Shown: one piece after another, positions 12,649 to 55,957 of the stretch
Numbering within the stretch: position 1 is the stretch's first letter
Layout of the letters: each line of letters begins with the position of its first letter
Assembly (NCBI RefSeq): GCF_018780385.1
Contig: NZ_JADMJO010000025.1
Location: forward strand, 9,994-73,993
Direction: 5' to 3'
Origin: Hydrogenophaga sp.
Lineage (GTDB): Bacteria; Pseudomonadota; Gammaproteobacteria; Burkholderiales; Burkholderiaceae_C
Length of the DNA stretch: 64,000 nt
Made by a program: the position numbers and the translations under genes
The notes under the pieces: generated by a model
Seen by the model: the letters and a program-made list of their open reading frames with translations, nothing else
Databases searched by the model: none
Told to the model about the DNA's origin: nothing

Positions 12649-12841
12649 TGGCCCGGAGTGACCCGCACCGGGCCACGCCGGGCCAGGTCAACAGTCAAAA
12701 AGCGACACAACGGATTGGGAGCTGGCCCGGAGTGGCCCGCACCGGGCCACTCCGGGCCATGCCAAGCACATGCGGACAGGAATAGTGCCAAGAGCTTCTT
12801 CGGCTGGCCCGGAGTGGCCCGCGCCGGGTCACTCCGGGCCA
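12649..12841. repeat. three 37-bp palindromic repeats, parC-like centromere candidate
   Basis: TGGCCCGGAGTGGCCC-N5-GGGCCACTCCGGGCCA at 12649, 12723, 12805; half site at 12911-12921. Confidence 0.8.
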
Positions 12842-46732: not shown

Positions 46733-47950
46733 TCAGAACCAACGTGCAAGAACGGGGAGAAAGGCTACAGCCCAATCTCGTGCTGGAGGCGTGAGTTTGA
46801 GATAAATCACATGCGAAAGCAGGAGCCCTCCGACGACAAATGCGTCGATGACCCAAAGGATTACCCGTTGCGTGAAAGCGCGTTTTGACAGGTAGTTGAA
46901 TGTTCCGGTAAAGGAGTCTGCAACGGCGGCGAATTCTTTCTTGAGTTGCCGTTTCTGCCGATCAATCTCATCCCGCAGAACCGCCAGCGTATGCGACTGG
47001 TTATGCAGCAAGAAGATCATCAGAATGGCAAATACCCAACAACCAAGCAGAACCGCCGTATTGACCCAAAACTCGTAGCCAACTGCCTTGGCGTCTTTCA
47101 TCTGGGTTGCCACGATGATCGTGGCAACCGGGATTCCGAGCAGTTGGTTTTGTATCTCCGAGAAAACCTTATGGATCTTCCCGCTGTATTCCACCCTCGC
47201 TGCTTCGACTTGGTCTCTGACCTTCTCGTATGAGAATCCTGCTGCAAACAACTGGTATCCCTGCTCGAACTTCTTCTTGAGCTCGCCTGCGTTAGCCAGT
47301 AGGTGCCCAAACCGCTGTGCACCTGACAGATGTTCGGTGATAGAGATCACAGCCTCCGCGAGGATCGACGCGCACTGTTTCTCATGTGTGCCAGATGGAA
47401 TGAGATCCAGAATTTCCCGCACTACAGGAAGAGACATTTTTCTCAGGTCATCCGCGCCGTATTCAATGGGCAGTTCGAACTTACCGTCCTTGATGAAAAT
47501 GAGTGCTGGTTCGTCAACGTCCAGAAACGCAGCCGATCGTTTTAGCGTTTGAATAAAACGGAGCACCGTGCGGTAACGTGCCACAACATGATCTTCCGCG
47601 ACGAGATCGTTGCTGGAAATTCCCTCGGCCATCAAGAAGAACGATGGCTCTTTGATACGCGCTTTGCGAGCCCCAGAAAGCAGATCGCCGACATCATTTT
47701 TGAGCACACCAAAGCCAAGCCGGGGCGAAACCGAAATTTCAACCGATTGCCCGACGGCTAATGTGGATGGATCCTCTTCGTTGGCAAGCAAAAGATGCGC
47801 ATCGTGTGGCGCATCAATGCACGCCTTGAGCGCGGCGAGATCCGATGCTGTGCTGATCGAGAAGGTTCCACGAACAGGAGGCCCGTCTTGCCGATTGGCA
47901 AGACCCCGAACAACCTGGGTCAGGTCGTCCCAGGTTGCCTCAGTCGCCAT
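46733..47950 (-). CDS. unknown protein with C-terminal coiled-coil and ~3 TM helices
   Basis: hydrophobic LLGIPVATIIV, WVNTAVLLGCWVFAILMIFLL, VILWVIDAFVVGGLLL; 11-bp overlap with upstream gene. Confidence 0.75.
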   Translation of the reverse strand: MATEATWDDLTQVVRGLANRQDGPPVRGTFSISTASDLAALKACIDAPHDAHLLLANEEDPSTLAVGQSVEISVSPRLGFGVLKNDVGDLLSGARKARIKEPSFFLMAEGISSNDLVAEDHVVARYRTVLRFIQTLKRSAAFLDVDEPALIFIKDGKFELPIEYGADDLRKMSLPVVREILDLIPSGTHEKQCASILAEAVISITEHLSGAQRFGHLLANAGELKKKFEQGYQLFAAGFSYEKVRDQVEAARVEYSGKIHKVFSEIQNQLLGIPVATIIVATQMKDAKAVGYEFWVNTAVLLGCWVFAILMIFLLHNQSHTLAVLRDEIDRQKRQLKKEFAAVADSFTGTFNYLSKRAFTQRVILWVIDAFVVGGLLLSHVIYLKLTPPARDWAVAFLPVLARWF

Positions 47951-48962
47951 CTTTTATCTCACGGTCCAACTCTGCCTTCAGTCCATCAGGCAGCTTTAGC
48001 AAGGTTAATTCACCCTTCTTCTGGTTGTAATGCGCATAGCCTTGCGATAGAGCGTGGCGATCAATATCCACGGCCCAGTAGTCGGTTTTGTACTTCATTC
48101 GCATCAAGGCTTTGATACTGCGGCCGTCCGGCACAAAACCGTCCGATATCTGCACGCCATCTTCGACGAAAGCGTCTTGCAGCTTCTTGGGTTCGTTTGG
48201 CCACGCGACATTCGAAAGGGCTTCCAGACTCAACGGCTCGTCGTTCTTGTTGCGCTCCTCACAATAGCTGAAAGCTGACTGCAGAAAATCTTCTTCGGCT
48301 TTCTGATCCAGCCCTTGGCCTTTTGCGAACTTCTTCAGGGCGCTGACTAATTTCTTGGTTTCTTCCGTGTCGGCGATCAGTTCATTGCAACCGAGAAAGA
48401 CCTTGAAGTAGTCTGCTATCTCGCCACGCTGCTTGAGGAAGCCGACATAGCGGATGTCTTCATCCGCTTTCTCCCAGTCGGTGAGATTGACGCGGCCCGC
48501 GACGCGCAGGTTGCTGAGATCAACGTGCATTGCATCTACGACCTCAAGGGTTTCATCGTTAATGACGCTCCCATCCACATTGTTGATGATGGCGACTAGA
48601 AACCAAGTCACATGGGCTGCATTGGTCACCTGTGCCATGAGGACATAACCGCCTGTTGCGAGCGGCACGCCCCCCGCTTTGGCCGAAAGAACGCTCAACA
48701 GCAGCTTTGACGCTTCTAGGAAACCGGTGCTTTTCTCGATGAATGTTTTTCTCAAAATAGCGGAGGAGGGATAGTTAACCTCATCAGCCTCGAAGCGCCC
48801 ATATCCTTTGCTGGCCTTGCCCGCATAGAGGTCATGAATCGCCAGGATCAATTTCTTTACGGGATCAGTAACCTTGAGCGCGGCTTTTCTTTCGACGACC
48901 GTTGCTTTGCCATGCTTTTCCTTGACCAACTTGTGGACGATGACGTTGTTAACAGTGTCCAA
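47940..48962 (-). CDS. nucleoid-associated protein, NdpA/YejK (NA37) family
   Basis: TTG start after GGAGGAG; VIVHKLVKE, GGYVL, RVAGRVNL, YVGFLK, ADYFKVFLGC. Confidence 0.75.
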   Translation of the reverse strand: MDTVNNVIVHKLVKEKHGKATVVERKAALKVTDPVKKLILAIHDLYAGKASKGYGRFEADEVNYPSSAILRKTFIEKSTGFLEASKLLLSVLSAKAGGVPLATGGYVLMAQVTNAAHVTWFLVAIINNVDGSVINDETLEVVDAMHVDLSNLRVAGRVNLTDWEKADEDIRYVGFLKQRGEIADYFKVFLGCNELIADTEETKKLVSALKKFAKGQGLDQKAEEDFLQSAFSYCEERNKNDEPLSLEALSNVAWPNEPKKLQDAFVEDGVQISDGFVPDGRSIKALMRMKYKTDYWAVDIDRHALSQGYAHYNQKKGELTLLKLPDGLKAELDREIKDGD

Positions 48963-49194
48963 GAAAATCTCCTCCGGTGTGCGGCTATATCCGCTGTTGT
49001 TATCTGACCCTGCATTGTTACATCTGTTGACGATCCTGTCCGTTCGGGTTGTTCCGTGCAAGGTGCATCGCGCCCAGAGTTCAAAGTTTCCTTCATCCGG
49101 GCATTGGCCACCCCAAGGACGCACACCGGATCCGTCAAGCAACTGATGCTTCGGCCGTCCCGACCTTCGATATGGCTGTGCTACCGTCCTTGTT

Positions 49195-50097
49195 ATGAAG
49201 AAAGCTGATGTGAAGACGTCCGAGGCTGCCGCGTTGCTGGACAGGATCAAGGTCCTTGCGGTTCAGGCGATGTTCTCGGACGATGAGCTGCTAGAGCAAC
49301 TGGTCCTTAAGGGTGGGAACGCTATGGCCCTGGTGCATCAAATCAGCGCGCGCGCCTCAGTTGACCTGGACTTTTCGTTGAAACAGGACTTCGGCGATGA
49401 CGTCGCATCTGCTGAAGCGCGTATCCACAAGGCGTTGACCGAGAACTTTCGCGCGAGTGGGTACGAGGTATTCGACTTCCGCATGATCGAGAAGCCGCGG
49501 GCAATTTCCGAGGACATGCGCCATTTCTGGGGCGGCTACGCCGTCGAATTCAAACTGGCAACTGCCGATGTGTTCGCGGAGCATCGCGACGACTTGGAGG
49601 TCTTGCGCCGGCGTGCGGTCAACCTCGGGCTGGGCACCAAGTTCCTGATTGACATCAGCCGCTTCGAGTATGTCGACGACAAACAGCCAGTCGACTTCGA
49701 GGGCTACATGATCTACGTGTACTCGCCCGTGATGATCGTGTGTGAGAAGCTTCGGGCGATCTGCCAACAGATGCCCGAATACGGTCCCATCATCAAGCGG
49801 GATCGTGCCGGCAGCGCTCGCGCCCGGGACTTCGTTGACATCTTTGTGCTGATGGACACCCTAAAGCTGGACCCGACGACGGACAAGGTGGCCCAGATCT
49901 TGAGGTCAATGTTCGAGGTCAAGAAGGTGCCGTTGGCGTTCCTGGGCAAGGTGCCGGAGGTGTACGAGTTCCACCGGGCCGGTTTCGCCGCAGTGGAGGC
50001 GACCGTCACGCCGGGGTTCGACCTCCAGGAGTTTCGCTTCTACTTTGACTATGCGTTGGCCCTGATCAACAAACTAAAACCCGCTTGGGATGTGTAG
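49195..50097 (+). CDS. abiEii: AbiEii/AbiGii-family nucleotidyltransferase toxin
   Basis: LVLKGGNAM, RASVDLDFS, EKLRA, RARDFVD. Confidence 0.8.
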   Translation: MKKADVKTSEAAALLDRIKVLAVQAMFSDDELLEQLVLKGGNAMALVHQISARASVDLDFSLKQDFGDDVASAEARIHKALTENFRASGYEVFDFRMIEKPRAISEDMRHFWGGYAVEFKLATADVFAEHRDDLEVLRRRAVNLGLGTKFLIDISRFEYVDDKQPVDFEGYMIYVYSPVMIVCEKLRAICQQMPEYGPIIKRDRAGSARARDFVDIFVLMDTLKLDPTTDKVAQILRSMFEVKKVPLAFLGKVPEVYEFHRAGFAAVEATVTPGFDLQEFRFYFDYALALINKLKPAWDV

Positions 50098-50964
50098 CCG
50101 CCAGTCGCTGTCGTAGCGTGTGTCGTTCATCTCGTGCGTCAGATAGAAGTCTTGCTCCATGGGCAGACGCCGCACTAGGTCGATCTGGCTAGGCTTGTAG
50201 TCCGCGCGCTGCAGGTAATAGCCGACGGCCTGGTGGTAGGGATAGACAAAACTCAACTTGTGCAGCATCGCCACCAGCTTGTTGATGGACACGCGCTCCT
50301 TTGCCAGCTCGTACGCTTTTGCCACCTCAAAGACGCCGCCCGCATAGACCGGCCGCACTGTGATGTCGATCAAGGTGCGTTCTAGATTCGTCAGCCGGGC
50401 TTGGACCTCGGCCCCGCTTTCGTCTGTCATCAGTTCGGTGACGACGCCCAGGTGGCCGGTGTCGGCGCCGTTCAGCAAGTAGATCTTCTTGTCGTCGTAT
50501 TCCACCCAGTTACTTGAGGCGCGTGCCGGCTTCTTGAAGGCGTTGTCAATATCTGCCTGGCTGATCTTGCTGTCGCGTTCGCTTGCATGCGAGGCGGTTC
50601 GTTCGTCCGTGAGATAGATGGACTTGGGTGACTGCTCGGTCAGCCCGTGTGCGCGCATCGCCGTGTAGTGGCTGAAGTGCAGGTCTTTTTTCAGGCCTAG
50701 CAAGATGGCGAGCAAAGGGGCTTGGTCCCAGACGTAGCACTTCTCAGCCCGCTGAGGGAAGAGAAACTCATACTGTTTGAGCTTCGAATGCTTCTCCAGA
50801 AATTCGATAAATCGTTCAGCAGTTGTGTTTTGTGCAAGCCGCCAGAAATCCCGCTGTTCCGTGAGGATTGCGTAAATCTCTTTCGGCTTCAGGACATGGT
50901 CGGGAAGCGCGTCAAAGTGCCGAACGATGTCCGGCTTTGCGATCTGGATTCGAGTGCGATTCAT
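50074..50964 (-). CDS. abiEi: AbiEi-like type IV antitoxin
   Basis: HFSHYTAMRAHGLT, TNLERTLIDI...YAGG; convergent with the toxin, 24-bp 3' overlap. Confidence 0.65.
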   Translation of the reverse strand: MNRTRIQIAKPDIVRHFDALPDHVLKPKEIYAILTEQRDFWRLAQNTTAERFIEFLEKHSKLKQYEFLFPQRAEKCYVWDQAPLLAILLGLKKDLHFSHYTAMRAHGLTEQSPKSIYLTDERTASHASERDSKISQADIDNAFKKPARASSNWVEYDDKKIYLLNGADTGHLGVVTELMTDESGAEVQARLTNLERTLIDITVRPVYAGGVFEVAKAYELAKERVSINKLVAMLHKLSFVYPYHQAVGYYLQRADYKPSQIDLVRRLPMEQDFYLTHEMNDTRYDSDWRLHIPSGF

Positions 50965-51000
50965 CCGACAGGGTGAGCTCGCGAATCAATGTGGTCGGCG

Positions 51001-51316
51001 TACTTGGCAGCATGCATGCTGCCAAGTATGCCATTGATGAAGCGAGGCTACAAGCCATTTACCTCGAAGTCGGGATGGGAAATGTGGTGTTGTAACGCTG
51101 TGCTGTGCAGCGTTCACGCTGCACAGCATAACATAGGCACCGTGGGTAGTCAAATCGCATCTTCGCCAAGGAGCCAGGTCAAAGCGTTGTTTACAGGGAG
51201 CTCGTTGACTGCTAGGCTGGGGCATATATGCCCCAGCCTAGCAGTCAAACCATAGCCCTACTCTTGCAATTCCTTTCTAAATAGGTTATGCTATGGAGCG
51301 CATGCGCTCCATAGCA
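51001..51316. repeat. four perfect or near-perfect palindromes
   Basis: 28 bp (51001-51028), 13+2+13 (51101-51128), 44 bp (51205-51248), 28 bp (51289-51316). Confidence 0.9.
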
Positions 51317-51362
51317 CAGTGTATCACTCGCGCATACGGCCAACGGATCTCGGGAGATAGGA

Positions 51363-51887
51363 ATGACGATAGGCACGATCGAACTGGCCGAACAAGAGCT
51401 TGCCCTTCTTGAACAAATCGATTTCAACTGGCACTCCCATGACAGTGGCCGGCGTTCGTGTGACGCGGCTGCAAGGTTGATGCCGTTGCTTTTGCAGCGC
51501 AAAGCGATCCCCGAGCGCCGTTTGCGCTACTTTGACGATCCGGAGCTCAATGGAGGAAGAAAGTCCCGTCTGCAGGTGTTCGAAGGCAACGGCACTGTAG
51601 GAGTTGACATCTTTGGACACGGAAACTTTCTCCGTCATCTCCGCTATTTCATCCACGGGGCGGCATTGCCTGAGCGCATCAAAAGCCAGATGGCCGAGCT
51701 GGTCGGCGACCCCTCGTATTTCACCAGTGGTGACCTTGAGCCGGCGCGCAAGCTCGCTCGACAGTTGGCTCGATCGTCCGGGCTCGGATCTGCTTTGTCG
51801 GACAGCTTTTTCCAGTTGATGAATGACCTTGGATTAAGTCCAAGTTGCGCGGACTCAGTGCGACGAGCGGTACTGTCCGTGCGTTAG
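51363..51887 (+). CDS. hypothetical protein
   Basis: 174-aa ORF with RBS; no motif recognised. Confidence 0.65.
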   Translation: MTIGTIELAEQELALLEQIDFNWHSHDSGRRSCDAAARLMPLLLQRKAIPERRLRYFDDPELNGGRKSRLQVFEGNGTVGVDIFGHGNFLRHLRYFIHGAALPERIKSQMAELVGDPSYFTSGDLEPARKLARQLARSSGLGSALSDSFFQLMNDLGLSPSCADSVRRAVLSVR

Positions 51888-51985
51888 GCGACATCTGGGT
51901 TGCCAGGCGGTTTCGCTTTCCGCCTGGACGTTCAATCCAGCTTTCACGTCCCGTCCTGGCTAGGTAGAATATCGTATCGAGATCT

Positions 51986-52140
51986 GTGTACCCAAAGGTG
52001 TACCCCGAGAATCGAGACGTTCGTGAGAGCGAGCATTGGCGCGGGTTGGAGAGGATTTTTCGATCCAGCCCCAGGCACCACTTCTGTTTCTCAGACGATC
52101 CCAAGTTAGCCCAGAGTCCTTGTAAATCAAGAACTTAGCC
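51986..52140. other. possible relic att arm of an integrative element
   Basis: tandem GTGTACCC at 51986 and 51998; AT-rich TTGTAAATCAAGAACTTAG segment. Confidence 0.3.
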
Positions 52141-52221
52141 TGAAAAGGCGGCTCAAGCGGTATCGTTGAATTCCACAACGTCCCGTTCTTGCGTGTACCC
52201 CTACTCTGTGGCCGGTGTGAC

Positions 52222-52587
52222 CTATCGCGCGCTCATCAGCAGCGCAGCAAGCAATCCCAAACCGATCGCAATCGCTGCTGGATTGTCCGGCTTCTCTGAA
52301 ATCACATCGACGCCTTGCTGCCGAAGGCGCGCCTCGTACTGATCGGCCCACTGCAACACTTGGCCAGGCTGCAAGCCGAGCTGTGTTGCCGCGTTCCTGA
52401 GTTGCGAGAGGTTTAGTACGGAGTCGCCTGACTCAAGTCTGGAATAGGCGGACTGCGATAGTCCAAGGGTTGCTGCGAGATCGCCTTGCTTGATCCCGCG
52501 AGCCTCACGCTGCTGCGCCAATATCTTGCCGACCAAAGCGGGATAGGTGACCAACGGTTTTTGAGGGGGGATTGACTTTTCCTGCAT
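52222..52587 (-). CDS. XRE-family HTH regulator with hydrophobic C-terminal tail
   Basis: QGDLAATLGLSQSAYSRLESG; tail AAIAIGLGLLAALL. Confidence 0.8.
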   Translation of the reverse strand: MQEKSIPPQKPLVTYPALVGKILAQQREARGIKQGDLAATLGLSQSAYSRLESGDSVLNLSQLRNAATQLGLQPGQVLQWADQYEARLRQQGVDVISEKPDNPAAIAIGLGLLAALLMSAR

Positions 52588-52626
52588 GTATGCGTTTAAT
52601 GCAAATATGTTCAACAGGAGGATACC

Positions 52627-53040
52627 ATGATTCCCGTTTCAAACCATCAAAAGATCTGGGCACTTCCCGCAGGAACCGTCATTCGGGTTAACTGCGGTTT
52701 CTATGATCATGTGGCGTTGCTCAGTGATCGATGGATTGGCGGGGAGCGTGGTGTCTTGTCGTTTTCGGCGCAAAGCTGTGGGCTCGTCGAGCAATGCATA
52801 TCGACATTCGCGGCCGCTCGCCCTGTAACGGTAGACGGATATCTCGGTGGCCTGCCGCCCGGAACCGTGATGCAGCGTGCGCGGCTGAAGCAGGTACAGG
52901 GTTATTCATGGACAAAATTCAACTGCGAGCACTTCGTCCGTTACGCGCACGGCGTACCCGTGGAGAGCCCTCAGCTGCAGCAATGGGCGTTTCTGGGCAG
53001 CGCGTTCGGATTTCTCGCGCTCTTATCTGCAAAGGCATGA
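52627..53040 (+). CDS. LRAT-like (permuted NlpC/P60) protein
   Basis: YDHVAL and NCEHFVRY motifs; hydrophobic C-terminus; RBS aggagg. Confidence 0.7.
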   Translation: MIPVSNHQKIWALPAGTVIRVNCGFYDHVALLSDRWIGGERGVLSFSAQSCGLVEQCISTFAAARPVTVDGYLGGLPPGTVMQRARLKQVQGYSWTKFNCEHFVRYAHGVPVESPQLQQWAFLGSAFGFLALLSAKA

Positions 53041-53119
53041 GCACTCCAGACATTGGCATGGTCGGAGCGCCCAGCCGCTTCGGCGAGTTTGCATAGTTGG
53101 AGGCGAAGCCCAAATGAAA

Positions 53120-53150
53120 ACCCCGGCTCTAGGCCGGGGTGGATTTTTTA
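53120..53150 (+). terminator. intrinsic terminator, possibly bidirectional
   Basis: ACCCCGGC-N5-GCCGGGGT flanked by AAAA and TTTTT. Confidence 0.5.
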
Positions 53151-53178
53151 GGTCTTACGTGAAGGGTCTTAGGGAGAG

Positions 53179-54159
53179 TTGGCTGGTACTTCGGTCCTGC
53201 TTACCGTAAGACCTGGTGAATCAGGCCAAGGCTATGTTCTGAGGATGGCGTCCGAAAATGGGTTGCGCGGCTTGCCATTCGTCAAAAGCGGATTGGGGCG
53301 GTCTCGCTTCCACACGCTGGATGCAGATGATGCAGCGAGGATTTCCAAATGGTTTGGAGCGCCGGAGGGAGAACTCGCAGAGGCGTTGGGGCACATTTCC
53401 AGAGATGCCGCAAAAACCGGGTTCTCGTATGCGGGCCAAGAGATCGGCCGGAGCTATTTTCTCAATCGAGGACGTCCGCGAGTGTGTCCCCGGTGCATGT
53501 CGCAGCATGGCTTCTGTCGAGCGGAATGGGATTTTGTCCTCGTGGTGGCCTGTCCGCGGCACGCTTGCCTTTTGGCGGACAGGTGCCCGGTGTGCGACAA
53601 AGCGGTGGACTGGAACCGGCCGAGCCTGACGGCGTGTCAGTGCTACTCAGATTTGCGTGGTTGGAAGGCGCAGTCCGTTGTGCCACCGACGCTTGAGCTG
53701 GCGTTTGCGCAATGGGTGTCCGCGTTCGTGACCCCAGGTGCCCGCGATGAGGCCGCTGTCGAGAACACTGATGGAGCAGGGTTTGCATTGCTGAGGCTGC
53801 TTCGACCGCTGTCCCTCGGGGCCGGTTTGTCACTCACCTATGCACTTGCCAGTGCATGCCAGTATCCACTGAGCGGGGGCGGCCAGCGAGTCAAGAAGAA
53901 GACGTCACTGCTTCATGGCAGACAGGTGCTCCAGGCGGCGGACCGGCTGGTACAGAGGATTGCACAGGGGGAGCGGATAGAGCTGAGGGTGAGTCAACGC
54001 CCTGTGACAGTGGCGCTGCTATCTGAAGCCATGACCAAGGCAACATGCCCGGAGGATCGATCCATTGCACTCTCGATCCTGGGCTCCGTGTTGAGGCAAG
54101 GTGGGCGCACGAAATGGTCGGGCCAATACGGGCAGCTCTCGCAGTTGCCGCTTTTTTGA
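53179..54159 (+). CDS. tniQ: TniQ-family protein
   Basis: PGES..GYVLRMASENG, VCPRC, ACPRHACLLADRCPVC, CQC zinc-finger pattern. Confidence 0.75.
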   Translation: MAGTSVLLTVRPGESGQGYVLRMASENGLRGLPFVKSGLGRSRFHTLDADDAARISKWFGAPEGELAEALGHISRDAAKTGFSYAGQEIGRSYFLNRGRPRVCPRCMSQHGFCRAEWDFVLVVACPRHACLLADRCPVCDKAVDWNRPSLTACQCYSDLRGWKAQSVVPPTLELAFAQWVSAFVTPGARDEAAVENTDGAGFALLRLLRPLSLGAGLSLTYALASACQYPLSGGGQRVKKKTSLLHGRQVLQAADRLVQRIAQGERIELRVSQRPVTVALLSEAMTKATCPEDRSIALSILGSVLRQGGRTKWSGQYGQLSQLPLF

Positions 54160-54288
54160 TGTGCGTTTCACAGAAGCGATTTGTATGCACAGGAGCCAAG
54201 ACTATCAATCTCAAGTCAGCGATGTCATCCGTTCCCCTTCTTTTCGCCACAGGAAAACCCGGGCAGGCTGCCGAGAAAGACGCCGCAC

Positions 54289-54633
54289 ATGAAACGAATT
54301 GAACGACTGCAAGTCGCTACAAATGCTGTACGGATCTTGGTTCCAAAGATTCGTGAACATGGCACTTATCACCCCGCCACAGCACTTGAGCCAAGTCGTT
54401 GGGTGTGGGAATCGCTTGGCTACAGGCTGAGCCTTGTTGAGAACATTCTGTTGTCTCCCGTGGAACCCAGTCTCTCATCGTTGCTTGACATTTGGCCTCG
54501 TGGAGGAGGGAAGCAGTTCTCAGCAAGTTGGTACGCTGATCGGCCGTGGGTGCCTCCACGAGTCATCTGTTTTCATCAGGGCGCGTGGATGGATGTATTC
54601 AGTCTAGGTTCGAGATCAGTGGAAAGTGACTGA
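54289..54633 (+). CDS. hypothetical protein
   Basis: 114-aa ORF from ATG 54289. Confidence 0.45.
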   Translation: MKRIERLQVATNAVRILVPKIREHGTYHPATALEPSRWVWESLGYRLSLVENILLSPVEPSLSSLLDIWPRGGGKQFSASWYADRPWVPPRVICFHQGAWMDVFSLGSRSVESD

Positions 54634-54811
54634 CTATCGTCCCGCGATGTTTTTGCCTGCTTCTCCAGCACTTTTATGAGCGCGCTCTGCAGCGGCAAAT
54701 ACCACCGAGACCCTGCCTTCCATCAAACGACCTTGATCGCGGCAGTTGCAGCCACCATCTTTCGCACACTTACGCAGAATGGCCAAAGATTCAAAGCCGA
54801 CATGCCTGGCC

Positions 54812-55957
54812 ATGAGCCGCATTCATCACCGCCCCAAACTCGCGCTCGACATTGCCACGCAGCTGCTGAGTCCCGGCATCCTCGACCAGGGCCTTCGCTC
54901 CGGCCTGTTCCTATCTGGCCCGCGCCGCACCGGAAAAACCACCTTCCTGCGCCATGACCTGACACCGGCGCTGAAGAACGCTGGCGCATTTGTGATCTAC
55001 GTGGACCTGTGGTCGGATACCAGCGCAGAACCCAGCAAACTCATCCGCGCCGCCCTGTGCTCGGCGCTGGAGGGTCTGCAAGGCACGAGAGGGAATCTGC
55101 AAGGCCGAGCTGCAGGCTTGACGTTCGACTTCCAAATCTCCGACCTTGGCACCCCCACAGGTGCCACCATTGCGCAAGCAGCCACGGAAATCGTCGACCA
55201 GGCCAAAACCGATCTGGTCTTCATCGTCGATGAGGTCCAGCACATGCACACATCAGATGCCGGCCTTGCGCTCACGTACGCCTTTAAGGCAGCACGCGAT
55301 GCCGTCAACGCCCGGCCCCAAACCCCCGGCCACTTCATCTTCATTGGGGCCGGATCACACCGCGCCCAGGTCATGGGAATGACGGTGCAAGGTAGAAGCG
55401 CCTTCGAGGGCGCAACCTCTGCCGATTTCCCGACGCTGGGCGAGGACTACGTGCAGTCTGTCCTCGAGACACTGTTGAGTGAAGGCACCAATGTCATCCC
55501 CAGTCTGTCGGTGACCTGCGAGTCGTTCGTCCGACTCGGCTGCCGCCCCGAGGAACTGCGGCGCGCTTTGCGCACCCTGCAGCAATTCCAGCCGCAGGAG
55601 GCCGACCAGTACCTTCCGGTCATCGCCACCACACTCATGGAGGCTGCTGCCGATATCGAGATCACGAAGGTCGAGGAAATTGGCGTCCTTGCCTGTGCCG
55701 TCTTCGAGCGCATCGCCCTTGCAGAGGAGGACGCCAAAGGCCTTTTCTCCGCCTCCGCACTCAGTGCTTATTCCGGCGCGGTAGGGCGGGCTGTCTCCGC
55801 CGATCAGGTCCAGAGCACTGCCCAGCTTCTGCAGGACCGCAACATCATCGTTCGCAAGGGGTACGGACGGTATGCAATCACCGACCCGTTCATCCGGCAG
55901 ACCTGGTGCAATCGCGTCGCAGTACTGGCGCCGACCTTTCATCACAAACAGTCCTGA
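54812..55957 (+). CDS. AAA-type ATP-binding protein with probable C-terminal winged helix
   Basis: Walker A GPRRTGKT, Walker B FIVDEVQ, GYGRYAITDPF. Confidence 0.8.
   Translation: MSRIHHRPKLALDIATQLLSPGILDQGLRSGLFLSGPRRTGKTTFLRHDLTPALKNAGAFVIYVDLWSDTSAEPSKLIRAALCSALEGLQGTRGNLQGRAAGLTFDFQISDLGTPTGATIAQAATEIVDQAKTDLVFIVDEVQHMHTSDAGLALTYAFKAARDAVNARPQTPGHFIFIGAGSHRAQVMGMTVQGRSAFEGATSADFPTLGEDYVQSVLETLLSEGTNVIPSLSVTCESFVRLGCRPEELRRALRTLQQFQPQEADQYLPVIATTLMEAAADIEITKVEEIGVLACAVFERIALAEEDAKGLFSASALSAYSGAVGRAVSADQVQSTAQLLQDRNIIVRKGYGRYAITDPFIRQTWCNRVAVLAPTFHHKQS

What the first reader, a model, noticed from the sequence alone, without database searches (positions are those of the whole stretch)
51001..51316. 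Four perfect palindromes with compensatory changes upstream of abiEi
Seen: TACTTGGCAGCA-TGCA-TGCTGCCAAGTA, TGCTGTGCAGCG-TTCA-CGCTGCACAGCA, a 44-bp perfect palindrome (51205-51248) and TGCTATGGAGCG-CATG-CGCTCCATAGCA within 316 bp. The second and fourth differ at two arm positions, and each change is mirrored in the other arm. All four loosely share a core like (T/G)GSRGCR-N4-YGCYSC(A/C). Established: AbiEi antitoxins autorepress through promoter inverted repeats. Inference: these could be AbiEi operators, but perfect symmetry kept despite sequence drift suggests selection on hairpin or cruciform structure, for example ssDNA/RNA hairpins or a sensor or decoy for phage proteins.
Basis: partly seen in the sequence, partly recalled or inferred. 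Interest (0 to 1): 0.7.

Follow-up and report, generated by a model that had tools for sequence, protein, structure and literature searches.

The report
Perfect palindrome operators upstream of abiEi
Four perfectly symmetric DNA sites in front of an antitoxin/regulator gene (abiEi) look like its repressor-binding sites sitting on three promoters; relatives from many bacterial phyla carry the same kind of array, with sequences that change but stay perfectly symmetric.

Summary
Four of the six perfect inverted repeats in the 64-kb window lie at 51001-51316. They sit between a minus-strand abiEi-like gene and a divergent 174-aa ORF.

The array travels with abiEi. Of 86 loci examined (AbiEi identity 99% to 46%, several phyla), 85 carry 1-5 perfect palindromes within about 450 nt upstream. 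The commonest length is 28 bp. The shared half-site is TGCTATGnAGYATA.

In the window's clade each palindrome begins four bases into a conserved sigma-70-type -10 hexamer. P1 and P2 face abiEi; P4 faces away. I therefore read them as AbiEi operators, which is a known kind of element.

What is unusual is the symmetry. There are 203 perfect sites against 34 with one mismatch. Substitutions, and one 1-bp deletion, are mirrored in both arms. The central dinucleotide flips to its reverse complement between near-identical loci. G.T mismatches are not favoured over A.C, which argues against RNA-level selection.

My best account is protein-constrained operators whose arms are homogenised by replication template switching. 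A functional cruciform is not excluded.

The abiEi and abiEii genes are convergent and overlap at their 3' ends in most of the 86 loci, unlike the canonical operon. I file this as a new variant of a known kind.

The parts
51001..51028 (.). P1: 28-bp perfect palindrome (TACTTGGCAGCATGCATGCTGCCAAGTA). Proximal operator, 37-64 nt upstream of the abiEi ATG.
   Evidence: The orthologous site is kept in close relatives, with a mirrored G/A-C/T change and one hybrid (L009).
51025..51053 (-). Promoter-like element for P1: -35 TTGTAG (51053-51048), 17-nt spacer, -10 CATACT (51030-51025). The last 4 nt of the -10 are the first 4 nt of P1.
   Evidence: Read from the sequence. CTTG and ATACT are conserved in 10 relatives. 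The register is enriched family-wide. It is a weak match and the transcription start site is not mapped.
51101..51128 (.). P2: 28-bp palindrome (13-bp arms, central TC asymmetric). Operator on the main abiEi promoter.
   Evidence: The centre is TGAA, TAAA, TTAA or TTTA in relatives.
51125..51153 (-). Promoter-like element for P2: -35 TTGACT (51153-51148), 17-nt spacer, -10 TATGCT (51130-51125), with an extended TG.
   Evidence: Promoter scan. TTGA and TTATGCT are invariant in 10 relatives. The same register occurs in 69 of 260 palindrome sides in the AGC/GGC clades, against 3.2 expected.
51205..51248 (.). P3: 44-bp perfect palindrome between the two divergent -35 boxes. The inner core GGGGCATATATGCCCC resembles the GGCATATATGCC operator class of other clades. 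It is absent from L001-L005.
   Evidence: L010 has mirrored 1-bp deletions; L006 has one mismatch. DNA hairpin energy is -25.9 kcal/mol.
51289..51316 (.). P4: 28-bp perfect palindrome. Operator on the divergent promoter.
   Evidence: With its flanks it is a 41-nt, 76% inverted paralogue of the P2 module (I1).
51264..51292 (+). Divergent promoter-like element for P4: -35 TTGCAA (51264-51269), 17-nt spacer, -10 TATGCT (51287-51292).
   Evidence: Read from the sequence. TTGCAA and TATGCT are conserved in all 10 relatives, including those that lack orf174.
50074..50964 (-). abiEi-like gene (296 aa): N-terminal winged helix-turn-helix plus a C-terminal domain. It is the presumed binder of P1-P4.
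   Evidence: PADLOC AbiEi 7e-16. AF2 model pLDDT 93.6. Foldseek hits 1ZEL at E 1e-6 and 6Y8Q at E 2e-6. 3693 homologues.
49195..50097 (+). abiEii (DUF1814 nucleotidyltransferase toxin). It is convergent with abiEi, with a 24-bp 3' overlap.
   Evidence: Pfam PF08843 at 4e-24. The convergent arrangement recurs in most of the 86 loci. No family-type palindromes lie near its start.
51363..51887 (+). orf174: a conserved hypothetical gene downstream of the P4 promoter. It is variable cargo, not part of the conserved module.
   Evidence: Next to abiEi only in WIN, L006, L007 and L009. Homologues elsewhere lie in defence islands or ICE cargo without abiEi or palindromes.

Best explanation
P1-P4 are operator sites of the AbiEi-type winged-helix antitoxin/repressor encoded at 50074-50964.

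Site anatomy (shown): each standard site is 28 bp, made of two abutting 14-bp half-sites with consensus TGCTATGnAGYATA. I infer that each half-site is read by one AbiEi winged-helix domain.

Promoter layout (consensus and conservation shown; transcription start sites not mapped): in the window's clade every standard site starts four bases into a -10 hexamer. A bound protein would therefore cover the -10 to about +20.
- P2 sits on a strong promoter, TTGACT-17-TATGCT, facing abiEi.
- P1 sits on a weaker tandem promoter, also facing abiEi.
- P4 sits on a divergent promoter, which in this window drives orf174.
- P3 is a longer variant site between the two -35 boxes. It may help build a higher-order or looped repression complex.

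The result would be negative autoregulation of abiEi plus co-repression of whatever lies on the other side. The convergent toxin gene abiEii is not under these sites.

Symmetry (partly shown, partly inferred): the near-absolute symmetry has two causes. Purifying selection holds the contact positions in both half-sites. Frequent replication template switching between the arms copies a change in one arm onto the other, inverts the centre, and sometimes extends the palindrome beyond the protein footprint.
For: Linkage to abiEi:
- 221 perfect palindromes occur in 85 of 86 loci, and nearly all lie within -450 to -20 of the abiEi ATG. The counts are 203 perfect 28-bp windows upstream against 14 in all other sequence of the loci, which has about 11 times as many positions.
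- The neighbours on the other side are unrelated between loci.
- orf174 homologues elsewhere have no palindromes.
- The one locus without palindromes (L051) also shows only a short AbiEii match.

A protein-defined site:
- The commonest length is exactly 28 bp (121 of 221).
- Strongly conserved positions are T14, C12, T11, G8, A6, G5 and T2.
- Within close relatives the arms change about 3 times less than the flanks (my rough count from the differences listed).

A locus-encoded binder rather than a host factor:
- The core class (AGC, GGC or AGT) follows the AbiEi tree, not host taxonomy.
- AbiEi has the fold of the two solved AbiEi antitoxins, with an N-terminal winged helix.
- Those two antitoxins repress their own promoters through inverted repeats (PMC7319586).

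Promoter register:
- The -35 and -10 elements are conserved in 10 relatives.
- 69 of 260 palindrome sides show the register, against 3.2 expected.

Homogenisation of the arms:
- 203 perfect sites against 34 with one mismatch.
- 10 pairs changed on both sides and none changed on one side only in P1, P2 or P4; 0 of 500 shuffles reached this.
- L010 has mirrored 1-bp deletions.
- AA<->TT changes fall exactly at the dyad of P2 or P4 between loci that encode an identical AbiEi and differ at only 7-9 of about 420 upstream bases.
- L062 and L068 differ by a whole-palindrome inversion, two mirrored double substitutions and no one-arm change.
- Symmetric extension of 4 bp or more per arm occurs in 25 sites, against about 0.8 expected (my calculation from the lengths).
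- Template switching is known to perfect quasipalindromes (PMC7202029, PMC5941160).
Against: - No binding, footprint or transcription start data exist for this family. Only DNA metagenome runs were found.
- The geometry differs from the characterised AbiEi operators, which are two 23-bp repeats 3 or 13 bp apart.
- In the AGT clade the promoter register is not detectable.
- Operators within one locus differ at several positions that still stay symmetric. Simple dimer recognition does not explain this. Template switching explains it only if it is unusually efficient here, because most bacterial operators are imperfect.
- P3 and other 36-50-bp palindromes extend well beyond a plausible protein footprint.
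- The link between AbiEi residue 76 and core class is confounded by phylogeny.
Confidence: 0.65

Rival explanations
1. The palindromes work as extruded cruciforms or single-strand DNA hairpins, and perfect pairing is kept by selection on that structure. Examples would be sites that respond to supercoiling or replication, which AbiEi or a phage protein recognises. P3, lying between divergent promoters, would act as a sink for transcription-driven supercoils.
For: - Symmetry persists at positions that vary freely between operators of one locus, and it extends to 36-50 bp in about 25 sites.
- Mirrored indels occur.
- Most of the family has a (TA)3 centre, which favours extrusion.
- Single-strand hairpin energies are -13 to -26 kcal/mol, z-scores -6 to -11.
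- P3 lies between back-to-back promoters.
- The centre inversions show that the arms do pair with each other at some frequency.
Against: - A sharp 28-bp mode and conserved base identities point to sequence-specific duplex recognition.
- The pair next to the central dinucleotide is complementary in 220 of 221 sites. It would sit in or beside a hairpin loop and would not need to pair.
- The window's own clade has G+C-rich centres (GCATGC, GCGTTCACGC), which are poor for extrusion.
- From general knowledge, not computed here: 28-bp palindromes are short for extrusion at the superhelical density found in vivo.
- A known mutational process already accounts for the symmetry (PMC7202029, PMC5941160).
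- The TA-rich centre is equally well explained by bendability, since AbiEi bends its operator (PMC7319586).
Confidence: 0.15
2. The palindromes act at the RNA level, as 5'-UTR hairpins, a small RNA (the region gives a weak Rfam ar35 match), RNase III sites or terminators.
For: - A transcript from the P2 promoter would carry P1 as a complete 12-13-bp hairpin in the abiEi leader.
- Rfam ar35 matches at 30.6 and 27.6 bits across P4+P3 and P2+P3.
Against: - The ar35 scores are below the gathering score of 45. The match is carried by generic G+C hairpins. The family's U-tail terminator is absent, and ar35 is a Rhizobiales sRNA.
- No terminator-like site was found.
- Among single-mismatch sites, G.T/T.G (13) is not favoured over A.C/C.A (15), so there is no wobble tolerance.
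- The predicted start sites for P2 and P4 fall inside the palindrome, so their own transcripts would lack the left arm.
- The sites occur in both orientations relative to their promoters.
Confidence: 0.05
3. They are dispersed repetitive palindromic elements (REP- or MITE-like), or binding sites of an unrelated regulator, that merely happen to lie here.
For: P3 is an insertion/deletion polymorphism of about 46 bp relative to L001-L005. Promoter-operator modules appear duplicated and inverted (I1; L016 and L018).
Against: - There are no other copies in the window.
- In 86 loci from many phyla they occur only upstream of abiEi.
- The core class tracks the AbiEi clade.
- The neighbouring HTH_3 gene (52222-52614) and orf174 do not stay with the palindromes: the upstream neighbours differ between loci.
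Confidence: 0.03

Closest known systems
S. agalactiae AbiEi operator (IR1/IR2 in PabiE)
   Same: A two-domain AbiEi-fold antitoxin with an N-terminal winged helix. Inverted repeats lie in its own promoter. It represses its own transcription, and monomers bind each repeat and bend the DNA (PMC7319586).
   Different: There, a single pair of 23-bp repeats is separated by 3 bp in front of a bicistronic abiEi-abiEii operon. Here there are two abutting 14-bp half-sites per site and 2-5 dispersed sites, commonly about 100 or 111 bp apart. Three promoters are involved, one of them divergent, and the toxin gene is convergent. Protein identity is about 11%, so the relation is detectable by fold only (no sequence match).
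M. tuberculosis Rv2827c promoter (four inverted repeats, negative cooperativity)
   Same: The protein is the best structural match and of similar size (1ZEL, TM 0.59). Several repeats of differing sequence and affinity tune the autoregulation (PMC7319586).
   Different: There, the four 23-bp repeats are packed into 131 bp, with 13-bp and 4-bp gaps, in a co-directional operon. I know of no report of perfect symmetry or of a family-wide comparison.
Quasipalindrome template-switch correction and conservation of perfect inverted repeats in Proteobacteria
   Same: Imperfect inverted repeats are converted to perfect ones by strand switching during replication (PMC7202029). Perfect repeats are conserved more than expected (PMC5941160). 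The mirrored substitutions, mirrored indel, centre inversions and palindrome extension seen here are what that process predicts.
   Different: Those studies used reporter constructs or generic short repeats in E. coli. Here the process appears to act on a functional operator family across phyla, so the arms of each operator evolve in concert while the operators of one locus stay distinct.

Membership tests
AbiE (type IV toxin-antitoxin) autoregulatory operator | The adjacent gene encodes an AbiEi-fold protein with an N-terminal winged-helix DNA-binding domain | tested here: met
   PADLOC AbiEi 7e-16. AF2 pLDDT 93.6, with helix-helix-helix-wing in residues 10-79. The only significant PDB folds are 1ZEL and 6Y8Q. 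Pfam and NCBIfam give no hit.
AbiE (type IV toxin-antitoxin) autoregulatory operator | A DUF1814 AbiEii nucleotidyltransferase partner gene | tested here: met
   PF08843 at 4e-24 for 49195-50097. A partner is present in most of the 86 loci.
AbiE (type IV toxin-antitoxin) autoregulatory operator | A bicistronic abiEi-abiEii operon behind the regulated promoter | tested here: not met
   The genes are convergent with a 24-bp 3' overlap in the window and in relatives. No palindromes lie near the abiEii start.
AbiE (type IV toxin-antitoxin) autoregulatory operator | Inverted repeats overlap the core promoter of abiEi | tested here: met
   Conserved -35 and -10 elements have the palindrome starting inside the -10. 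This rests on promoter consensus and conservation only; transcription start sites are not mapped.
AbiE (type IV toxin-antitoxin) autoregulatory operator | Repeat geometry as characterised: pairs of 23-bp repeats with 3- or 13-bp gaps | tested here: not met
   Sites are 28 bp, made of two abutting 14-bp half-sites, and are dispersed at about 100 or 111 bp, compared with PMC7319586.
AbiE (type IV toxin-antitoxin) autoregulatory operator | AbiEi binds the repeats and represses transcription | not testable with these tools
   This needs gel-shift, footprinting and reporter assays.
Quasipalindrome template-switch hotspots | Changes make or keep the repeat perfect; an asymmetric centre can be inverted | tested here: met
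   Comparative evidence only: mirrored substitutions and an indel; dyad dinucleotide and whole-palindrome inversions between near-identical loci. The events were not observed directly.
Intrinsic terminators | A G+C-rich hairpin followed by a T run | tested here: not met
   No terminator-like sites in 50800-51500.
Rfam RF02346 ar35 sRNA | A score at or above the gathering threshold, plus a 3' U-tail terminator | tested here: not met
   30.6 and 27.6 bits against 45; no U tail.
REP-like dispersed extragenic palindromes | Many dispersed copies per genome | tested here: not met
   Copies lie only at this locus in the 64-kb window and only upstream of abiEi in 86 loci. The whole source genome was not available.
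Functional cruciform or hairpin DNA elements | The structure forms in vivo and is what gets recognised | not testable with these tools
   Only the energy of the isolated single strand could be computed.

The most novel reading that the evidence does not exclude
In this large AbiE subfamily, AbiEi (or a phage factor) reads the operators in an extruded cruciform or hairpin state. Perfect pairing is then selected for, and is not merely a mutational by-product. The array, with long P3-type palindromes between divergent promoters, would couple antitoxin expression to DNA supercoiling or replication stress during phage infection. That would give a convergent toxin-antitoxin pair a structural DNA sensor.
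Probability: 0.1. Interest if true: 0.8.

Novelty: new variant of a known kind. Interest (0 to 1): 0.55.

Why it matters
AbiE systems are widespread phage-defence toxin-antitoxin modules, but only two AbiEi regulators have been studied, both in co-directional operons.

This locus represents a large subfamily: 3693 homologues in the protein search and 425 genome loci in the scan. Three things set it apart.
- The antitoxin and toxin genes converge and overlap, so the antitoxin cannot co-regulate the toxin in the textbook way.
- The antitoxin promoter region is a multi-operator array with a built-in divergent promoter. That promoter can capture neighbouring cargo genes.
- The operators are a clear natural case of concerted evolution of the two half-sites of a binding site. 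Sequences drift, yet stay perfect palindromes over inter-phylum distances, and there are visible traces of strand-switch inversions.

This offers a tractable system for two questions: how much of operator symmetry is selection and how much is mutation bias, and whether DNA structure plays any part in sensing by toxin-antitoxin systems.

Tried and rejected
- Plasmid collection, near-identity search of 49000-52200: no match.
- PDB sequence-profile search with the AbiEi family alignment: nothing relevant. The relation to solved AbiEi structures appears only at fold level.
- First AF2 run with 21 sequences was poor (pLDDT 58.7). It was repeated with 88 sequences.
- Public sequencing runs: only DNA metagenomes hold the locus and no RNA runs were found. 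Laying contigs showed that assemblies break at P3, plus a few variants at centres and arm ends. It gave no information on variation within a population.
- Rfam: a sub-threshold ar35 match and microRNA-precursor hairpin matches. All were rejected as generic hairpin matches.
- Search for a conserved divergent ORF or small protein beyond the distal palindrome: none. Most candidates look like spurious high-GC ORFs.
- Test of the central TATATA as a -10 with an upstream -35 in the AGT clade: no signal.
- Covariation between AbiEi residues and operator class: the classes are monophyletic, so the association (residue 76 in the wing) has no independent support.
- Spacing periodicity of about 10.2-10.7 bp: R = 0.31, with 6 of 5000 jittered sets reaching it. 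It is suggestive but confounded by relatedness, and possibly by the fixed geometry of back-to-back promoters, so I do not rely on it.

Full report
**1. The observation**

The interval 51001-51316 holds four perfect inverted repeats:
- P1, 51001-51028, 28 bp
- P2, 51101-51128, 28 bp, with a 2-nt asymmetric centre
- P3, 51205-51248, 44 bp
- P4, 51289-51316, 28 bp

These are shown. The whole 64-kb window (60% G+C) has only six perfect repeats with arms of at least 10 and loops of at most 8, and four of them are here. P2 and P4 differ at two arm positions, both mirrored. With their flanks they form a 41-nt, 76% inverted paralogue pair (I1).

**2. Context**

The repeats fill the 398-bp gap between a minus-strand 296-aa gene (50074-50964) and a plus-strand 174-aa ORF (51363-51887).

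The 296-aa protein has no Pfam or NCBIfam hit, but it matches the PADLOC AbiEi profile at 7e-16. An AlphaFold model built on 88 homologues is confident (pLDDT 93.6). Its only significant PDB neighbours are the two solved AbiEi antitoxins:
- Rv2827c (1ZEL): E 1e-6, TM 0.59
- S. agalactiae AbiEi (6Y8Q): E 2e-6

Residues 10-79 form a winged helix-turn-helix.

The AbiEii toxin gene (PF08843, 49195-50097) lies on the opposite strand. The two genes converge and overlap by 24 bp. This is not an accident of this window. The same convergent, overlapping arrangement recurs in most of the 86 loci, from Betaproteobacteria to Planctomycetota and Zixibacteria.

**3. Comparative evidence**

AbiEi has 3693 homologues at E <= 1e-5. 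I collected 85 loci with flanks: five through an exact protein look-up and 80 from a scan of one genome per species.

- Of the 86 loci, counting the window, 85 carry 1-5 perfect palindromes upstream of abiEi, 221 in all.
- I counted 28-bp windows whose positions 3-14 from the dyad are complementary. The interval -450 to -20 has 203 perfect windows, 34 with one mismatch and 12 with two. All remaining sequence of the loci, with about 11 times as many positions, has 14, 19 and 81.
- No family-type palindromes lie near the abiEii start.
- The gene on the far side is unrelated from locus to locus.
- orf174 is next to abiEi in only four loci. Its homologues elsewhere sit in defence islands or conjugative-element cargo, without abiEi and without palindromes.

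The array therefore belongs to abiEi.

**4. Anatomy of a site**

The commonest length is exactly 28 bp (121 of 221), followed by 30 bp (43). The centre is fully symmetric in 149 sites and has a 2-nt asymmetric core in 71. No site has a 3- or 4-nt loop.

Reading from the outside to the dyad, the half-site consensus is T-G-C-T-A-t-G-n-A-G-Y-A-T-A. The best conserved positions are T14, C12, T11, G8, A6, G5 and T2. A fixed length and conserved base identities are the signature of sequence-specific protein recognition. Two conserved blocks half a helical turn apart would suit a recognition helix plus a wing; this is my inference.

The inner-core class (AGC, GGC or AGT) follows the AbiEi tree rather than host taxonomy. 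Bordetella and Advenella loci share the AGT class with Planctomycetota, for example. This argues for a locus-encoded binder, and AbiEi is the only conserved DNA-binding candidate.

**5. Promoters**

In ten close relatives the intergenic region has diverged by about 10%, yet three promoter-like elements are conserved:
- TTGACT-17-TATGCT directly abutting P2. This was also the only hit of the promoter scan.
- TTGTAG-17-CATACT abutting P1.
- On the other strand, TTGCAA-17-TATGCT abutting P4.

In each case the last four bases of the -10 hexamer are the first four bases of the palindrome. Across the AGC and GGC clades this exact register occurs on 69 of 260 palindrome sides, against 3.2 expected from shuffled flanks. 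Proximal sites face abiEi and distal sites face away.

A protein bound to the palindrome would cover the -10 to about +20, which is classic repression geometry. The divergent P4 promoter is conserved even where orf174 is absent, so it is part of the module and drives whatever lies next door. In the AGT clade, mostly from other phyla, this register is not seen.

**6. The symmetry**

This is the unusual part.

- Among the ten close relatives, 10 base pairs of the palindromes changed on both sides and none changed on one side only in P1, P2 or P4. One hybrid exists (P1 of L009). None of 500 shuffles reached these values.
- P3 of L010 has mirrored 1-bp deletions.
- L062 and L068 are about 94% identical upstream (my estimate from the alignment). 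They differ by two mirrored double substitutions, a GT/AC change at a dyad, and a 3-nt bulge that sits on opposite arms of a palindrome of about 50 bp. The bulge difference amounts to a whole-palindrome inversion. They show no one-arm change.
- L001, L002 and L003 encode the same AbiEi protein and differ at 7-9 of about 420 upstream bases. Two of those differences are AA<->TT changes exactly at the dyads of P2 and P4.
- Symmetry also extends past the 28-bp unit far more often than chance allows. Extension of 4 bp or more per arm occurs in 25 sites, against about 0.8 expected (my calculation from the lengths). The longest palindrome is 50 bp.

**7. What keeps the sites symmetric**

*Recognition by two identical subunits.* This explains symmetry at contact positions. 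It does not explain symmetry at positions that differ between operators of one locus, nor beyond the footprint.

*Selection on RNA hairpins.* This is disfavoured for two reasons. Single-mismatch sites show no excess of wobble-type G.T (13) over A.C (15). The predicted start sites of P2 and P4 also lie inside the palindromes.

*Template switching, or selection on DNA structure.* Template switching during replication is an established process that turns quasipalindromes into perfect palindromes (PMC7202029). It has been proposed to explain the conservation of perfect inverted repeats in Proteobacteria (PMC5941160). From my own knowledge of the older literature, the intermolecular form of the switch inverts an asymmetric centre, which is what searches show.

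I therefore favour purifying selection on contact positions together with frequent arm-to-arm copying.

A functional cruciform or hairpin remains possible. In its favour:
- the (TA)3 centres of most of the family;
- the long P3-type palindromes between divergent promoters;
- hairpin energies of -13 to -26 kcal/mol.

Against it:
- the sharp 28-bp unit;
- the always-complementary pair next to the dyad;
- the G+C-rich centres in the window's own clade.

The TA-rich centre is equally consistent with the DNA bending reported for AbiEi (PMC7319586).

**8. Comparison with what is known**

S. agalactiae AbiEi binds two 23-bp repeats 3 bp apart and represses a bicistronic operon. Rv2827c binds four repeats with graded affinities (PMC7319586).

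The present system works like these: an AbiEi-fold repressor with inverted repeats on its own promoter. It departs from them in site geometry, in the number and spread of sites, in having a divergent promoter, and in the convergent toxin gene. I file it as a new variant of a known kind.

**9. Rejected alternatives**

- Intrinsic terminators: none found.
- Rfam families: only a sub-threshold ar35 match carried by generic hairpins.
- Dispersed REP-like repeats: there are no other copies.

**10. Limits**

Everything about binding, repression and transcription start sites is inferred. No RNA data exist for this locus. The spacing periodicity and the residue-operator association are confounded by relatedness.

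Noticed in passing
window 49195-50964; L001-L085: abiEi and abiEii are convergent with overlapping 3' ends (24 bp in the window). This holds in most of the 86 loci, across several phyla, unlike the canonical abiEi-abiEii operon. The toxin promoter carries no family-type palindromes, so how the toxin is regulated is open. Antisense or collision effects are possible.
   Followed up: partly
window 46733-49250: Next to abiEii on the minus strand lie two genes. One is a 405-aa protein with a sub-cutoff match to NCBIfam DS1_2_antiphage (1e-18; 67 bits against a 315-bit cutoff). The other is an NA37/NdpA nucleoid-associated protein (PF04245, 2.5e-61). They may form another defence gene pair.
   Followed up: no
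window 51363-51887; L086-L089: orf174 belongs to a small unannotated family of 40 homologues. Elsewhere it lies beside restriction-modification genes and an OLD-TOPRIM/UvrD-helicase pair, or behind type IV secretion (TrbI) genes. It is a candidate defence or cargo gene of unknown function.
   Followed up: partly
window 52222-55957: An Xre-type HTH gene (130 aa, minus strand), a divergent LRAT/NlpC-like 137-aa ORF, a TniQ-domain protein (53179-54159) and an AAA ATPase (54746-55957). Together they suggest a transposon-borne or island context.
   Followed up: no
window 12723-12759 and 47105-47129: These are the only other perfect inverted repeats in the window. The first has 17-bp arms and a 3-nt loop and is G+C-rich. 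The second has 12-bp arms and a 1-nt loop and lies inside the 405-aa gene. Neither resembles the abiEi sites.
   Followed up: no
L062 and L068, -230 to -160 from the abiEi ATG: A palindrome of about 50 bp carries a 3-nt bulge (aaa/ttt) that sits on opposite arms in the two loci. This is a natural example of a whole-palindrome inversion between close relatives.
   Followed up: yes
All loci, upstream arrays: Centre-to-centre spacing of neighbouring palindromes clusters at 99-101 and 109-112 bp. There is a weak periodicity of about 10.2-10.7 bp (6 of 5000 jittered sets reach it). It may reflect helical phasing or looping, or only the geometry of back-to-back promoters.
   Followed up: partly
L030, L037, L039, L041, about -220 to -320: A second palindrome class, TAATnAGnAGCTTATAAGCTnCTnATTA, lies distal to the standard sites. 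Its outer end forms a perfect TATAAT on the strand facing away from abiEi. It may be a site for a different specificity.
   Followed up: no
window 51205-51248 in runs X9 and X10: Public metagenome unitigs break at P3 in X9 and X10. Other runs break elsewhere in the array: X11 ends within P1 and resumes just before P4, and X12 breaks near 51180. Arrays of this kind may therefore be under-assembled in short-read metagenomes.
   Followed up: no
L001, L002: The closest plasmid-borne relatives (from a Propionivibrio MAG and a public sequencing run) carry the module next to Rep3-type replication and ParA partition genes. The module is therefore mobile between chromosomes and plasmids.
   Followed up: no
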